64,000 nt of DNA from Candidatus Magasanikbacteria bacterium GW2011_GWC2_37_14 (GCA_000990355.1 LBSX01000002.1:6000-69999); one strand, 5' to 3'; shown: positions 52,185-57,780, counted from the stretch's first letter. Notes: a model not told the origin generated them from the sequence alone. Numbers and translations are program-made.

Positions 52185-52955
52185 ATGACTAAAAAAACTT
52201 TGATAATTCTACCTGGATGGGGTGGAAACAAAGAAACGTGGAAAAATTTTGCAGAACTTGCGAGCAAAGATTTTGACGTACATATTATTGAATTGCCGTG
52301 TTTTGGCGATGAACCCTGCCCAAAAACAGTTTGGGATATTGAAGATTATGTTGAGTTTGTTAAAAATAAACTTCTTGAGCGTCATTCCCGCGAAGGCGGG
52401 AATCTTAAATTGGTGAAAGATCCCCGTTTTCACGGGGATGACGCAGTGCTATTAGGTCACTCATTTGGTGGACAAGTAGCCACGGTCTTTGCTTCCAAAT
52501 ACCCAGAGATGATTGAAAAACTTATTTTAACAGCACCGGCTGTTTTCCGCCCTAAAAAAACTTTTCGACGAGTAGTTTTCAATATTGGAGCAAAATTTGG
52601 TAAATTAATTTTTAAAATTCCTTGGATAGAAAATGGTTCCCTCTGGGCCGAAAAAATTTATCACCAAGCAATTGGTGCCAAAGATTATCATGATAGTTCG
52701 GGCATTAAACGAGAAATTTTTAAAAATATTATTCGTCAAGACAGGGGAGTGGAAGCTAGTAAAATTACTATACCAACTCTAATTGTTTGGGGTACAATGG
52801 ATGGTTATCTACCAGTTGCTGATGCTAATCAATTGAATAAATTAATAAAAAACTCTAAACTTGAAATAGTTAATGGTGGAAGACATGGATTACACCTACA
52901 AATACCAGAAAAACTTTTATATTTAATAAAATCTTTTCTTGAAAAAAATATATGA
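52185..52955 (+). CDS. Alpha/beta-hydrolase fold protein with in-frame palindromic insert
   Basis: Nucleophile elbow GHSFGG. C-terminal GGRHGLHLQ His. Confidence 0.6.
   Translation: MTKKTLIILPGWGGNKETWKNFAELASKDFDVHIIELPCFGDEPCPKTVWDIEDYVEFVKNKLLERHSREGGNLKLVKDPRFHGDDAVLLGHSFGGQVATVFASKYPEMIEKLILTAPAVFRPKKTFRRVVFNIGAKFGKLIFKIPWIENGSLWAEKIYHQAIGAKDYHDSSGIKREIFKNIIRQDRGVEASKITIPTLIVWGTMDGYLPVADANQLNKLIKNSKLEIVNGGRHGLHLQIPEKLLYLIKSFLEKNI
52380..52443. repeat. Family A-like element (CGTCAT-ATTCCCGC/GCGGGAAT hairpin-ATCCCCG/CGGGGAT hairpin-ATGACG) inside the hydrolase gene
   Basis: Translated as HSREGGNLKLVKDPRFHGDD. Placed just before the GHSFGG nucleophile motif. Confidence 0.65.
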
Positions 52956-54532
52956 TTAACACCATAAACATAATTATTCTTGTTTTTTGGTTGATTAGTG
53001 CATTAGCTGATTATTTACAACTCACTTATTATTGGCAATTGAAAGAATGGCGCTGGGACAGAGCCAAAGATTTTTTATCCACTATACAAGGAAGACAATT
53101 GATTTTTCAACGACGTATCTCATTACGTATTATTTTAATTATTGTTGCACTTTTTTTACCATTCAATTTATTAATTTTTAAATTTTCTATAATTTTTATT
53201 TTGACATTAGATTTTTTAAATGCGTTTTACAAATTTTACTCTAGAAAGTTACTACATCCTGTTTTTACAAAAAAAGCCTTGTTAATTTTATTATTCACTT
53301 TCTGTTTAGAAGGTGGACTTTTCTTAAAATCACATGATTGGGAGATTCTACTCTTCTTATTAATGATAAGAGCTTTTTTACTTGGTTTTGTTATCTATTT
53401 TGTCAATTTATTTACTATTTTGGTTAAAAAATATTATATTAAAAAAGCTACAAAAAAAATAGAGAAACAAAAAAACTTAATAGTAGTTGGCATAACTGGT
53501 AGCTATGGAAAAACTACAGTAAAAAATTTCTTATATCATGTTTTAGAAAAAAAATTTAAAGTTATAAAAACGCCACGCAATATTAATACTGAAATTGGTG
53601 TAGCTAAATTTATTTTAAAAAATGATTTTAAAAATTCAGAAATTTTTATTTGTGAAATGGGTGCTTACAACGAAGGTGATATTCAAGCTATTTGCGATAT
53701 GGTACATCCGAAAATTGGTATTTTAACGGCTATAAATGAACAGCATTTATCATTATTCGGCGATATCAAAATTACACAAAAAACCAAATATGAACTTTTA
53801 AAATCTTTACCAGGAAACGGTTTGGCAATAATTAATTCGGACAACAACCTTTGTCGTGGTTTAATTCATGAATTAAATTGCGAAGTACATACTTTTGGCT
53901 ATAACGAAGAATACAAACCAACCTTTCTTCTAAAGAATATTAAATCTACAAATCAAGGAATTCTTTGTGAAGGAATTTTTTCTAATCAAACCATAATTAT
54001 TGAAGCTTCTATTGTAGGAGAACACAACTTTATGAATATAGCGCCCTGTTATTTAGTAGCAAAATTTCTAAAAATGTCCGATGATGACATAATCAAAAGT
54101 TGCAAAATTTTATCAATGCCCGATGGATCATTTCATATAAAAAATTATGGTTTGGCAATTATTATAAATGATAGTTATAATTCTAACCCAGACGGTTTTA
54201 AGGCTGCTTTGGGTGTAATGCAAAAATATTCATCACAAAAAAGAAGAATCGTAATTACTAGAGGAATGTTGGAGCTAGGTGGAAACAGTGAAGAGCTTCA
54301 TGAGTGTATTGGTGAAGAGATTTCTTTGGTAGCTGAAGAGTTAGTAATTATTACTCGTGACAATGAAGAAGCCCTGCGAAAGGGAGTTGGCACTAAATAT
54401 AAAACAGAAATAAAAAGTATTTTTGATCCAACAGATCTATTATCTTATTTTAGATCATTAAAAGACAAGGAATGTGTAATTTTATTGGAAAATCGTATGC
54501 CCATAGATATTATTAAAGAATTGGAAAAATAA
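52952..54532 (+). CDS. murF: MurF-like Mur ligase with an N-terminal polytopic membrane domain of about 170 aa
   Basis: P-loop VGITGSYGKTTVK. C-terminal IINDSYNSNPDGFKAALGVM. N-terminal region with 4-5 TM helices instead of the usual MurF N-domain. Confidence 0.7.
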   Translation: MINTINIIILVFWLISALADYLQLTYYWQLKEWRWDRAKDFLSTIQGRQLIFQRRISLRIILIIVALFLPFNLLIFKFSIIFILTLDFLNAFYKFYSRKLLHPVFTKKALLILLFTFCLEGGLFLKSHDWEILLFLLMIRAFLLGFVIYFVNLFTILVKKYYIKKATKKIEKQKNLIVVGITGSYGKTTVKNFLYHVLEKKFKVIKTPRNINTEIGVAKFILKNDFKNSEIFICEMGAYNEGDIQAICDMVHPKIGILTAINEQHLSLFGDIKITQKTKYELLKSLPGNGLAIINSDNNLCRGLIHELNCEVHTFGYNEEYKPTFLLKNIKSTNQGILCEGIFSNQTIIIEASIVGEHNFMNIAPCYLVAKFLKMSDDDIIKSCKILSMPDGSFHIKNYGLAIIINDSYNSNPDGFKAALGVMQKYSSQKRRIVITRGMLELGGNSEELHECIGEEISLVAEELVIITRDNEEALRKGVGTKYKTEIKSIFDPTDLLSYFRSLKDKECVILLENRMPIDIIKELEK

Positions 54533-54534
54533 AT

Positions 54535-55782: not shown

Positions 55783-56776
55783 AATAGAAAAAATAACAAA
55801 TCATGAAATTTGGGAAAATTTCAATTTACAACAACTGAACACTTTGTTTGTCCAGTCTGTCCAATATGGTAAATTTTATGAAAAAATTGGTGAACAATTT
55901 TGGATTTTTGGTATTTTTGAAAATAATATTTTAATTGGGGGGTCGTTAGTAGTAACTGTCCATGCTAGACGAGGAAATTTTCTTTACTTACCCTATGGTC
56001 CAATTGGTGAAAGGGGATTAAAAGATTTTTTTTCTTATTTAAAAGAATTTGCTAAAAAAAATAATTATGACTTTATTAGAGTTAGTCCTTTTATAGAAGA
56101 TTCAATAAAAAATAAAGAATTATACAAAAATTTGGGTTTTAGATCATCCCCAATACACGTATTAGCCGAAACAACCTGGTTATTAGATTTAGCCACAACT
56201 CAAGAAGAATTATTACAGCAAATGGACAAAACCCATCGTTATTTAATTAAGCGTTGTGAAAAAGAAGGGGTAAAAATTGAAAAATCCGATGATATTAATA
56301 AATTTAATAAATTACATGATGAAACAGCCAAAAGACATAAATTTATTAGATTTTCTAATAAATACATAACTAATGAATTCAATTCTTTTACTTTAAAAGA
56401 TCAATGTTTAATATTTAATGGTTTTTTGTCAACAAACGAATTAGATTCTTCAGCTGTAATTATTTATTATGGTAATATGGCCGCCTACAGACATGGTGCT
56501 TCATTAAATTTAAATCACAAAATTTCAACCTCGTATTTACTCCAATGGGAAGCTATAAAAGAAGCAAAAAAAAGAGGAATAAAATATTATAATTTTTGGG
56601 GTATTGCCCCAGAAAATGCTAAAAAAAACCACCCATTTAAAGGTATCACTCATTTTAAAAAAGGTTTTGGTGGTTATCAGAAAGATCTGTTACACTGTCA
56701 AGATTTACCAATTTCTTATAAATATTGCTTTGCCTGGATTATAGAAACATTGCGAAGAATTAAAAGAAGATTTTAA
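55775..56776 (+). CDS. FemAB-family peptidyltransferase (peptidoglycan interpeptide bridge formation)
   Basis: Tandem GNAT-like FemABX architecture. YGNMAAYRHGASL...YNFWGI. Confidence 0.65.
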   Translation: MYKIEKITNHEIWENFNLQQLNTLFVQSVQYGKFYEKIGEQFWIFGIFENNILIGGSLVVTVHARRGNFLYLPYGPIGERGLKDFFSYLKEFAKKNNYDFIRVSPFIEDSIKNKELYKNLGFRSSPIHVLAETTWLLDLATTQEELLQQMDKTHRYLIKRCEKEGVKIEKSDDINKFNKLHDETAKRHKFIRFSNKYITNEFNSFTLKDQCLIFNGFLSTNELDSSAVIIYYGNMAAYRHGASLNLNHKISTSYLLQWEAIKEAKKRGIKYYNFWGIAPENAKKNHPFKGITHFKKGFGGYQKDLLHCQDLPISYKYCFAWIIETLRRIKRRF

Positions 56777-56781
56777 TATTT

Positions 56782-57780
56782 ATGTTTTTTAATCCATATA
56801 AATTCAAGAAACAAGTCAAAAGGGGAGTAAGAAGTGCCTCTTGTTTGGTATTTTCCAAAGACACTGGCCTGCGAAAAGCCACTTGGCAATATCATAAACA
56901 AAATTCATGCAAAATCAAACAAAAATCTAAAATTTTTGAGAAATTGAAAATTGTTTTATTGACTGTTAGTTTATTTGGCACTTTTGCTATATTAATTTAT
57001 CATCCTTTTTTTAATATTAATAAGATTACTCTGCAAGGAGAAGAAAGAATAAATAATGATAAGCTACAAGAAACTGTTAAGGGTATTATAAATTATTATC
57101 ATTTTGGTATATTACCAAAAAAAAATTACTTTTTAGTTAATTTAAGTGAAGTAAATGATATTTTAAAAGAACGCTACCCAATAGAAACAATTGCCACAGA
57201 AAAAATTTTTCCCAACGAATTAAAAATCACTATTAAAGAAAAAATATCACAAATTATTTATGATAATGGACAAAAATACTATTATTTGGATACTATAGGA
57301 CAAGTAATTGAGCCATTACGCTTAGTAGGTGATGATGAATGGCAAAAAACTACATCAATTTTGAATTCCACTTCAACCACTGGCACACCAATCTTAGTAG
57401 AAGAAATAAATAAAAAACATACTCCCAATGTAACGCAAATTAAAAAAGAAATGGGCGATTATCCTATCATTTACGATAAAAGAACTAACATAGATATTAA
57501 TCAAACAAATTTAAATGAACAAATAGTTAGTGACACCATAAGTTGGTTTAATCAATTAAATAAATATACAAATTTAAAATTTGAATACCTCTTAATAGAG
57601 AGCAACCCCTTAGAAGGGGAGATAATAACTAACAAGGGTTGGAATATAAAAATTAGGTTTGGTAATAATCCAGAAAATGATTTTGTTAAATTTCAGCATC
57701 TATTACAAAAAGAAAATGTAGATCAAAATAATTTAAAATATATTGATTTGCGATATTTAAATAAAATTTATTGGCAATAA
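56782..57780 (+). CDS. ftsQ: FtsQ/DivIB-like cell division protein (single TM plus POTRA)
   Basis: TM helix LKIVLLTVSLFGTFAIL followed by a POTRA-like INKITLQGEERIN. Operon context with mur and fem genes. Confidence 0.5.
   Translation: MFFNPYKFKKQVKRGVRSASCLVFSKDTGLRKATWQYHKQNSCKIKQKSKIFEKLKIVLLTVSLFGTFAILIYHPFFNINKITLQGEERINNDKLQETVKGIINYYHFGILPKKNYFLVNLSEVNDILKERYPIETIATEKIFPNELKITIKEKISQIIYDNGQKYYYLDTIGQVIEPLRLVGDDEWQKTTSILNSTSTTGTPILVEEINKKHTPNVTQIKKEMGDYPIIYDKRTNIDINQTNLNEQIVSDTISWFNQLNKYTNLKFEYLLIESNPLEGEIITNKGWNIKIRFGNNPENDFVKFQHLLQKENVDQNNLKYIDLRYLNKIYWQ

What the first reader, a model, noticed from the sequence alone, without database searches (positions are those of the whole stretch)
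52952..57780. Membrane-anchored MurF-like ligase co-operonic with DegT aminotransferase, FemAB and FtsQ-like genes
The MurF-like protein replaces the usual soluble N-domain with about 170 aa containing 4-5 TM helices.

It is followed by a sugar aminotransferase (DegT family), a FemABX peptidyltransferase and a POTRA/FtsQ-like protein.

This suggests lineage-specific peptidoglycan-precursor chemistry (a modified amino sugar, an interpeptide bridge) assembled at the membrane.
Basis: partly seen in the sequence, partly recalled or inferred. Interest (0 to 1): 0.5.

Follow-up and report, generated by a model that had tools for sequence, protein, structure and literature searches.

The report
Membrane-anchored MurF with conserved hydrolase partner
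The cell-wall enzyme MurF, normally soluble, is here anchored in the membrane by a five-helix domain that replaces its usual nucleotide-binding domain; this form is common across many bacterial groups, almost always sits next to an uncharacterised hydrolase gene, and I found no paper that describes it.

Summary
ORF 52952-54532 encodes a 526-aa protein. It has five hydrophobic helices (aa 1-~160) followed by a MurF-type central and C-terminal ligase domain. Canonical MurF domain 1 is absent. DegT, FemAB and FtsQ/POTRA genes follow, tightly packed.

The N-terminal region is not a mis-join. It is conserved at full length in more than 120 homologues and occurs almost only at the N-terminus of such ligases.

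- An alpha/beta-hydrolase gene (52185-52955) overlaps the ligase start. It lies immediately upstream in 67 of 75 related loci that have room for it.
- The membrane-anchored MurF is not lineage-specific. The genome scan also found it in Lachnospiraceae and Eubacterium yurii isolates and in MAGs labelled Bacteroidales, Bacilli and Poribacteria.

Outside the candidate phyla radiation (CPR), D-Ala-D-Ala ligase (Ddl) follows the ligase. In Poribacteria the pair sits in the murF slot (murE-hydrolase-ligase-ddl-mraY). In CPR, DegT and FemAB take the position after the ligase. In Woesebacteria the order is ligase-DegT-FemAB-mraY-ftsW-murG-ftsA-ftsZ.

Best reading: this is the housekeeping MurF, membrane-tethered, with an unknown hydrolase partner and CPR-specific precursor-modifying enzymes. 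The chemistry is untested. It is a new variant of a known enzyme, of moderate interest.

The parts
52185..52955 (+). Alpha/beta-hydrolase (256 aa), a conserved partner of the ligase that lies outside the finding's coordinates. Its stop overlaps the ligase start (ATGA).
   Evidence: Pfam Abhydrolase_1 3e-21. Best NCBIfam match is the EstV family lipase, at 77.5 bits against a cut-off of 300. The Ser93/Asp206/His234 triad is at least 99% conserved in 73 homologues. It lies immediately upstream of the ligase in 24/27 CPR-type, 36/37 Ddl-type and 7/11 other loci.
52952..53476 (+). N-terminal membrane domain of the ligase (aa 1-175). It has five TM helices, predicted N-terminus outside and C-terminus inside. 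Conserved cytoplasmic motifs are Q29-x3-Y33-x3-R37 and P103-x2-T106-x-K/R108.
53477..54532 (+). MurF-type ligase body: central ATP-binding domain (P-loop GITGSYGKTT, aa 180-189) and C-terminal domain (DSYNSNP, aa 407-413).
54535..55782 (+). DegT/DnrJ/EryC1-family PLP enzyme (415 aa), substrate unknown.
   Evidence: PF01041 4e-61. Nearest solved proteins are sugar aminotransferases, with 7n63 and QdtB (3frk) at the top. The EDCAHS and SFGPDK (PLP-lysine) motifs are read directly in the translation. Present downstream of the ligase in 26/30 CPR-type loci.
55775..56776 (+). FemABX-family peptidyl/aminoacyl transferase (333 aa).
   Evidence: PF02388 2e-33. Weak matches to S. aureus FemA and FemX structures. 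Present in 29/30 CPR-type loci, and some loci carry a second copy.
56782..57780 (+). FtsQ/DivIB-like bitopic protein (332 aa), with one TM segment (aa ~54-77) and a POTRA domain.
   Evidence: POTRA_1 27.3 bits against cut-off 23. Hydropathy. The Saccharibacteria homologue in L016 also hits FtsQ_DivIB_C.
50945..52183 (+). Seryl-tRNA synthetase, 1 nt upstream of the hydrolase. It belongs to the conserved CPR synteny. A functional link is unproven.
   Evidence: Translation. Junction. SerRS sits directly upstream of the hydrolase in most CPR loci.
58044..58068 (.). Perfect 12-bp hairpin flanked by T/A runs, between the convergent FtsQ and M23-peptidase genes. It is a likely bidirectional terminator closing the operon.
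   Evidence: Inverted repeat I5. Sequence. The consensus terminator scan did not report it.

Best explanation
This is the CPR (Magasanikbacteria-like) version of a widespread two-gene module: an alpha/beta-hydrolase plus a membrane-anchored MurF.

The ligase is most likely the organism's housekeeping UDP-MurNAc-tripeptide:D-Ala-D-Ala ligase. Its soluble domain 1 binds the UDP-MurNAc-peptide precursor in canonical Mur ligases. Here a five-helix membrane domain replaces it. The topology is N-terminus outside and catalytic body in the cytoplasm. This holds the last soluble step of precursor synthesis at the membrane, next to MraY. Two conserved basic cytoplasmic loops of the membrane domain probably take over part of substrate binding (inferred).

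The hydrolase keeps its Ser-Asp-His triad and is a catalytic partner of unknown reaction.

In CPR the genes after the ligase are a DegT-type PLP enzyme and a FemX-like transferase. In at least one lineage they lie between murF and mraY. That position suggests they act on the nucleotide-linked precursor before lipid I is made. FemX would add a side-chain residue from aminoacyl-tRNA; the DegT reaction is unknown. FtsQ ends the operon, as in classical dcw clusters.

Shown: domain architecture, conservation, synteny and predicted topology. Inferred: substrate, the order of reactions and the roles of the hydrolase and DegT.
For: - The ligase body is MurF-like by sequence and fold. It keeps the P-loop, and the DSYNSNP motif at aa 407-413 is nearly invariant within the family.
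- Poribacteria L081 has the order mraW-ftsI-murE-hydrolase-ligase-ddl-mraY, which is the murF slot.
- Ddl lies immediately downstream in 39 non-CPR-type loci. This includes cultured Lachnospiraceae, where hydrolase-ligase-ddl is an isolated three-gene unit.
- Woesebacteria L025 has hydrolase-ligase-DegT-FemAB-mraY-ftsW-murG-?-ftsA-ftsZ.
- Saccharibacteria L016 has mraY-murI-murD-ftsW-murG-...-LysRS-SerRS-hydrolase-ligase-DegT-FemAB-ftsQ.
- The other Mur ligases near CPR loci that were typed are MurD, not a second MurF.
- The N-domain is conserved across phyla and restricted to this family.
- Positive-inside counts put the ligase body in the cytoplasm.
- The hydrolase triad is conserved.
- In C. 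jejuni an alpha/beta-hydrolase (Cj0796c, possibly essential) lies beside MurF (Cj0795c), with Ddl (Cj0798c) just upstream (PMC5530802).
- At position 450 the CPR type has His, as T. maritima MurF does at the aligned residue, whereas the Ddl type has Asn.
Against: - The murF model score is below NCBI's curated cut-off (233 against 288.6 bits).
- The precursor-binding domain 1 is absent.
- I could not scan any whole genome, so a second canonical MurF in the same organisms is not excluded. This matters most for the large Firmicutes genomes.
- No Ddl gene lies within 10 kb of the ligase in any CPR-type locus. Whether these genomes encode Ddl elsewhere is unknown.
- DegT has no keto-sugar-forming partner nearby.
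- The hydrolase's reaction is unknown.
Confidence: 0.65

Rival explanations
1. The ligase acts on a lipid-linked acceptor. MraY would first transfer phospho-MurNAc-tripeptide to undecaprenyl phosphate. The membrane-embedded ligase would then add the dipeptide to the lipid intermediate. The membrane domain would replace the nucleotide-binding domain because the acceptor's handle is a polyprenyl pyrophosphate.
For: Domain 1 is absent and a conserved membrane domain with basic cytoplasmic motifs takes its place. MurT, which I recall acts on lipid II, is a distant homologue of the query. The membrane domain is restricted to this family, which suggests more than a passive anchor.
Confidence: 0.12
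2. The hydrolase-ligase module is a paralogous accessory system rather than the housekeeping MurF. It would build or edit an alternative stem-peptide terminus or another amino-acid-containing envelope polymer. In CPR the ligase would use a substrate made by DegT/FemAB instead of D-Ala-D-Ala from Ddl.
For: - In Lachnospiraceae the three-gene unit sits among unrelated genes, and NCBI names some members only 'Mur ligase family protein'.
- Ddl and DegT-FemAB are mutually exclusive neighbours: 39/39 against 0, and 0 against 26-29/30.
- Five positions differ systematically between the two clades, two of them in the C-terminal domain.
Against: - The module occupies the murF slot in dcw clusters.
- The CPR loci come from contigs of about 0.56-0.66 Mb, consistent with small genomes unlikely to keep two MurFs.
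- The two clades follow phylogeny, so the differing positions may be lineage markers.
- The CPR type keeps the residue seen in T. maritima MurF at position 450.
- As far as I know, FemAB enzymes have not been shown to make free dipeptides.
Confidence: 0.12
3. The N-terminal 170 aa are an annotation or assembly artefact: a mis-joined upstream ORF or a wrong start.
For: None beyond the unusual architecture. A few homologous ORFs were called shorter (for example L032, L064 and L068).
Against: The frame is continuous with an overlapping upstream stop. More than 120 independent full-length homologues exist. Invariant residues lie in the N-domain. The AF2 model is confident. The same architecture appears in isolate genomes.
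Confidence: 0.01

Closest known systems
Canonical MurF (UDP-MurNAc-tripeptide:D-Ala-D-Ala ligase; structures of T. maritima 3ZL8, E. coli 1GG4, A. baumannii 4QDI)
   Same: The central and C-terminal domains match by sequence and fold. The gene sits in the murF slot or next to ddl in relatives.
   Different: Soluble domain 1 is absent, and a five-TM domain without a solved fold relative takes its place. It has a near-obligate alpha/beta-hydrolase neighbour. It scores below the curated murF cut-off.
Campylobacter jejuni Ddl (Cj0798c) - Cj0796c hydrolase - MurF (Cj0795c), and H. pylori EstV (HP0739) beside murF
   Same: An alpha/beta-hydrolase is encoded beside murF and ddl, and Cj0796c may be essential (PMC5530802). 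The hydrolases here best match NCBI's EstV family model: E. yurii copy 5e-44, window copy 1e-21.
   Different: Both scores are below the equivalog cut-off. I could not obtain the Campylobacter or Helicobacter MurF sequences, so whether they carry the membrane domain is untested. The H. pylori gene order is from memory only.
MurT of the MurT/GatD lipid II amidotransferase
   Same: It is a Mur-ligase-fold enzyme that acts at the membrane on a lipid-linked precursor (from memory). It is a distant sequence and fold match.
   Different: MurT is soluble, has a DUF1727/MurT_C C-terminal domain and partners with a glutaminase. The similarity here is much weaker than to MurF.
FemX of Weissella viridescens and FemX/FemA/FemB of S. 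aureus
   Same: FemAB family membership. At 333 aa the protein is about 90 residues shorter than the solved S. aureus FemA and FemX chains (426 and 420 residues). A position between murF and mraY in L025 fits action on the nucleotide precursor.
   Different: Similarity to characterised members is weak. The donor tRNA and the acceptor are unknown.
DegT/DnrJ/EryC1 sugar aminotransferases (QdtB, PseC and others)
   Same: The N-terminal PLP domain is present, with conserved Asp and Lys motifs.
   Different: Only the N-terminal half aligns well. All curated NCBIfam matches are far below cut-off. No dehydratase or oxidoreductase partner is in the neighbourhood.

Membership tests
MurF (UDP-MurNAc-tripeptide--D-Ala-D-Ala ligase) | Mur ligase central ATP-binding domain with P-loop, plus the C-terminal domain | tested here: met
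   PF08245 5e-36 and PF02875 1e-09. GITGSYGKTT at aa 180-189.
MurF (UDP-MurNAc-tripeptide--D-Ala-D-Ala ligase) | Closer to MurF than to MurC, MurD, MurE, Mpl, MurT or FolC | tested here: met
MurF (UDP-MurNAc-tripeptide--D-Ala-D-Ala ligase) | Reaches the curated whole-protein cut-off of TIGR01143 | tested here: not met
   233 bits against a cut-off of 288.6. The alignment starts at profile position 64. The shortfall is consistent with the missing domain 1.
MurF (UDP-MurNAc-tripeptide--D-Ala-D-Ala ligase) | N-terminal domain 1 that binds the UDP-MurNAc-peptide precursor | tested here: not met
   No PF01225 hit. PDB MurF chains align only from residue 82-117 onwards. The N-terminus is five TM helices.
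MurF (UDP-MurNAc-tripeptide--D-Ala-D-Ala ligase) | Genomic position in the murE-murF-mraY slot or beside ddl | tested here: met
   Met in relatives: L081, L025 and 39 loci with ddl downstream. Not in the window itself, which holds no murE, mraY or ddl within the stretch examined.
MurF (UDP-MurNAc-tripeptide--D-Ala-D-Ala ligase) | Catalyses ATP-dependent addition of D-Ala-D-Ala to UDP-MurNAc-tripeptide | not testable with these tools
   Needs an enzyme assay.
DegT/DnrJ/EryC1/StrS aminotransferases | Pfam PF01041 above its gathering score, with PLP-binding Asp and Lys | tested here: met
   207.5 bits against 19.8. EDCAHS and SFGPDK motifs in the translation. That these are the PLP-contacting motifs is from my own knowledge of the family.
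DegT/DnrJ/EryC1/StrS aminotransferases | Acts on a nucleotide-linked keto sugar | not testable with these tools
   No curated equivalog is reached. No keto-sugar-forming neighbour.
FemABX peptidyltransferases | Pfam PF02388 above its gathering score | tested here: met
   116.2 bits against 24.
FemABX peptidyltransferases | Aminoacyl-tRNA-dependent transfer to a peptidoglycan precursor | not testable with these tools
   Only weak matches to characterised members.
FtsQ/DivIB | Bitopic protein with POTRA domain and FtsQ/DivIB C-terminal domain | tested here: inconclusive
   One TM segment and POTRA_1 at 27.3 bits against 23 are met. The C-terminal domain is not detected in the window protein, but it is detected in the L016 homologue.
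EstV family lipase (NCBIfam NF058580) | Reaches the curated equivalog cut-off | tested here: not met
   77.5 bits (window) and 150.6 bits (E. yurii) against a cut-off of 300. The alpha/beta fold and the Ser-Asp-His triad are present.

The most novel reading that the evidence does not exclude
In a large share of bacteria (CPR, many Clostridia, Bacteroidales, and possibly Campylobacterota) completion of the stem pentapeptide may not be a soluble cytoplasmic reaction. A membrane-integral MurF would have swapped its nucleotide-binding domain for a lipid-facing domain. It would work with a dedicated serine hydrolase on a membrane-bound (polyprenyl-linked) acceptor. In CPR, the same module would be coupled to a DegT/FemX pair in place of Ddl.
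Probability: 0.12. Interest if true: 0.85.

Novelty: new variant of a known kind. Interest (0 to 1): 0.55.

Why it matters
MurF is a textbook soluble enzyme and an antibiotic target, and its domain 1 is part of every structural model of substrate binding. A common natural form lacks that domain, is integral to the membrane and travels with a conserved active hydrolase. This bears on how the Mur pathway is organised at the membrane. It also points to an unrecognised and possibly essential component of precursor synthesis: the hydrolase family that includes C. jejuni Cj0796c. Cultured carriers exist (Eubacterium yurii ATCC 43715 and several Lachnospiraceae), so the questions can be tested. For CPR, the DegT-FemX pair wedged between murF and mraY marks a lineage-wide, unexplored step in wall-precursor chemistry.

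Tried and rejected
- **Mis-join or wrong start:** rejected.
- **Second canonical MurF near the loci:** Whole genomes could not be scanned.
- **Does CPR have Ddl elsewhere?** A search seeded with a Ddl labelled Saccharibacteria returned only its close relatives. Its 560-kb contig carries the non-CPR (Ddl-type) module, so the question stays open.
- **Sugar-pathway partner for DegT:** the genes inserted between DegT and FemAB in some CPR loci are heterogeneous (DUF4015, PaaX-like, PKD, M20, Ldh_2).
- **Literature:** eight full-text searches and five papers read. No description of a membrane-anchored MurF was found. Only the C. jejuni note on Cj0796c was relevant.
- **Rfam scan of the 316-bp spacer after FtsQ:** nothing near any gathering score.
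- **Promoter and terminator consensus scans:** not above shuffled expectation.

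
Full report
**Observation**

- ORF 52952-54532 (526 aa) has a Mur ligase central domain (aa 181-368, 5e-36) and a C-terminal domain (aa 403-511, 1e-09). It has no Pfam N-terminal Mur domain.
- NCBI's murF model aligns only from profile position 64 of 418. It scores 233 bits, below the curated cut-off of 288.6 but far above every non-MurF Mur ligase model (76 bits or less).
- Solved MurF chains align from their residue 82-117 onwards.
- The first ~160 residues contain five hydrophobic stretches.
- An AlphaFold2 model built on 69 homologues is confident (pLDDT 89.9, pTM 0.84) and shows five long helices before the ligase body.
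- DegT (4e-61), FemAB (2e-33) and a POTRA/FtsQ protein with one TM segment follow.
- The gaps or overlaps between these genes are 8 nt or less.

**The N-terminus is not a mis-join**

More than 120 database proteins of 523-543 aa match over 100% of the query at 45-59% identity. The N-domain has invariant residues: W13, D20, Q29, K31, D40, R59, P103 and K159.

Across 82 family members, K+R counts are 5.3, 5.0 and 5.8 in loop 1, loop 3 and the segment after TM5. They are 0.4-0.8 in the other loops and the N-tail. This gives an N-terminus-outside, C-terminus-inside topology with the ATP-dependent body in the cytoplasm.

Two cytoplasmic motifs are conserved across phyla: Q29-x3-Y33-x3-R37 and P103-x2-T106-x-K/R108.

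An alpha/beta-hydrolase gene (52185-52955) overlaps the ligase start by 4 nt.

Eighty loci were kept. Searching their ORFs with the window's proteins gave these results:
- A homologous hydrolase lies immediately upstream of a 5-TM ligase in 24/27 CPR-type, 36/37 Ddl-type and 7/11 other loci that have room for it.
- Its Ser93-Asp206-His234 triad is at least 99% conserved, so it is an enzyme rather than a degenerate scaffold.
- Its best curated match is the H. pylori EstV lipase family, below cut-off.
- A paper on C. jejuni records the alpha/beta-hydrolase Cj0796c (possibly essential) beside MurF (Cj0795c), with Ddl (Cj0798c) just upstream (PMC5530802).

**The architecture is not lineage-specific**

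The same 4-5-TM ligase occurs in MAGs labelled Muribaculaceae, Bacteroidales, Clostridia, Bacilli, Erysipelotrichaceae and Poribacteria. It also occurs in Eubacterium yurii ATCC 43715 and in cultured Lachnospiraceae. NCBI organism labels on some MAGs are unreliable: two 'Gammaproteobacteria' loci have full Magasanikbacteria synteny. The isolates are not in doubt.

An NJ tree and pairwise identities split the family into two clean clades.
- **Ddl-type clade.** A ~400-aa D-Ala-D-Ala ligase follows the ligase in 39/39 loci. In Poribacteria the order is mraW-ftsI-murE-hydrolase-ligase-ddl-mraY, which is the classical murF slot. In Lachnospiraceae isolates, hydrolase-ligase-ddl is a self-contained unit.
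- **CPR clade.** Labels include Magasanik-, Sacchari-, Woese-, Nealson-, Yanofsky-, Staskawicz-, Wildermuth-, Peri-bacteria and others. No Ddl lies within 10 kb. DegT (26/30), FemAB (29/30) and FtsQ (17/30) follow instead.

**Context in CPR**

- The Magasanikbacteria synteny is long and stable at ~50% protein identity: MreC-MreD-PBP2-GreA-LysRS-cytidylyltransferase-HAM1/NUDIX-SerRS-hydrolase-ligase-DegT-FemAB-FtsQ. It is followed by a convergent M23 peptidase and GluRS.
- In a Woesebacteria genome the order is hydrolase-ligase-DegT-FemAB-MraY-FtsW-MurG-(223 aa)-FtsA-FtsZ.
- In a Saccharibacteria genome it is MraY-MurI-MurD-FtsW-MurG-PGA_cap-LysRS-SerRS-hydrolase-ligase-DegT-FemAB-FtsQ.

These are dcw clusters in which this ligase is the only MurF-like gene. 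Together with the ~0.56-0.66-Mb contigs involved, this makes the housekeeping-MurF reading the most economical.

The position of DegT and FemAB between murF and mraY suggests action on the nucleotide-linked precursor. My recollection is that Weissella FemX acts at that stage. This step is an inference.

**Mechanism and limits**

Shown: the architecture, the predicted topology, the conservation, the partners and the genomic slots.

Inferred:
- The enzyme still adds D-Ala-D-Ala.
- The membrane domain tethers it beside MraY, and its basic cytoplasmic loops compensate for the lost precursor-binding domain.
- FemAB adds a side-chain residue from aminoacyl-tRNA.

Unknown:
- **The hydrolase's reaction.**
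- **DegT's substrate.** The PLP motifs are intact. The nearest solved relatives are sugar aminotransferases, with 7n63 and QdtB at the top. No keto-sugar-forming partner lies nearby.
- **Whether DegT-FemAB genomes encode Ddl elsewhere.**

Five positions separate the two clades: K31/N, K108/R, N262/G, H450/N and R515/D. At position 450 the CPR type keeps the His seen at the aligned residue of T. maritima MurF. This gives no sign that the CPR enzyme changed specificity.

A Saccharibacteria-like 560-kb contig carries the Ddl-type module and the Ddl-type residues. That points to horizontal replacement of the module.

**Rivals**

- **Lipid-linked acceptor (0.12).** This fits the loss of domain 1, but gene order does not favour it and nothing supports it directly.
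- **Accessory paralogue, or an alternative substrate in CPR (0.12).** This fits the mutual exclusivity of Ddl and DegT-FemAB and the isolated operons in Firmicutes. The dcw placement and small genomes argue against it.
- **Artefact (0.01).**

**Comparison and novelty**

The protein works like MurF and is annotated as MurF by NCBI and JGI. It fails two membership features, domain 1 and the curated score. I therefore file it as a variant of MurF rather than a standard member.

Eight full-text searches and five papers read turned up no description of the membrane domain. Apart from the C. jejuni remark, none mentioned the hydrolase partnership. The library covers open-access papers only, so prior description elsewhere is possible.

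**Verdict**

Interest 0.55; new variant of a known kind.

Noticed in passing
window 47397-49484 (+): The lysyl-tRNA synthetase carries a ~210-aa C-terminal extension (aa ~485-695) with no Pfam match. It contains an 'LLHDIDWE' stretch. A Magasanikbacteria relative's LysRS carries DUF2000 at that end, and other relatives have a plain 496-aa LysRS.
   Followed up: partly
window 50945-52183 and 47397-49484; L016 6506-9236: SerRS, and often LysRS, are embedded directly upstream of the hydrolase-ligase-DegT-FemAB genes across CPR. In Saccharibacteria they lie inside the dcw cluster. Since FemAB enzymes use aminoacyl-tRNA, this could hint at the donor, but no test was possible.
   Followed up: partly
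window 49913-50941 (+): A single 342-aa protein fuses a HAM1 (non-canonical NTP pyrophosphatase) domain with a NUDIX domain. The fusion is conserved in Magasanikbacteria relatives.
   Followed up: no
window 24843-28638 (+): A 617-aa protein combines a Memo-like domain with a PGA_cap (capsule synthesis) domain. It is followed by an overlapping 650-aa ORF with no Pfam match. A PGA_cap gene also sits inside the Saccharibacteria dcw cluster.
   Followed up: no
window 3992-6583 (-): An 863-aa protein with a glycoside hydrolase family 9 (cellulase-type) domain and a CelD_N domain, in a small-genome CPR-like organism.
   Followed up: no
window 57781-58096: The 316-bp spacer between the convergent FtsQ and M23-peptidase genes is rich in inverted repeats. 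These include an 18-nt stem at 57956-57995, 14-nt arms 74 nt apart at 57853-57954, and a perfect 12-bp hairpin at 58044-58068. No Rfam family comes near threshold.
   Followed up: partly
L083 7669-11257, L073 2681-6251: Gut or rumen contigs labelled Saccharibacteria (one of 560 kb) carry the non-CPR (Ddl-type) hydrolase-ligase-Ddl module rather than the CPR DegT-FemAB form. MurT/GatD lies 4 kb away. This looks like horizontal replacement of the module.
   Followed up: partly
L011 1-939, L021 572-1540, L022 8997-9983: Some CPR loci carry a second, divergent FemAB gene immediately upstream of the ligase in addition to the downstream one. This would fit multi-residue side chains.
   Followed up: no
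L005, L006: Two GTDB representative MAGs titled 'uncultured Gammaproteobacteria bacterium' have complete Magasanikbacteria-type synteny around the ligase. The public organism labels of such MAGs are therefore unreliable.
   Followed up: no
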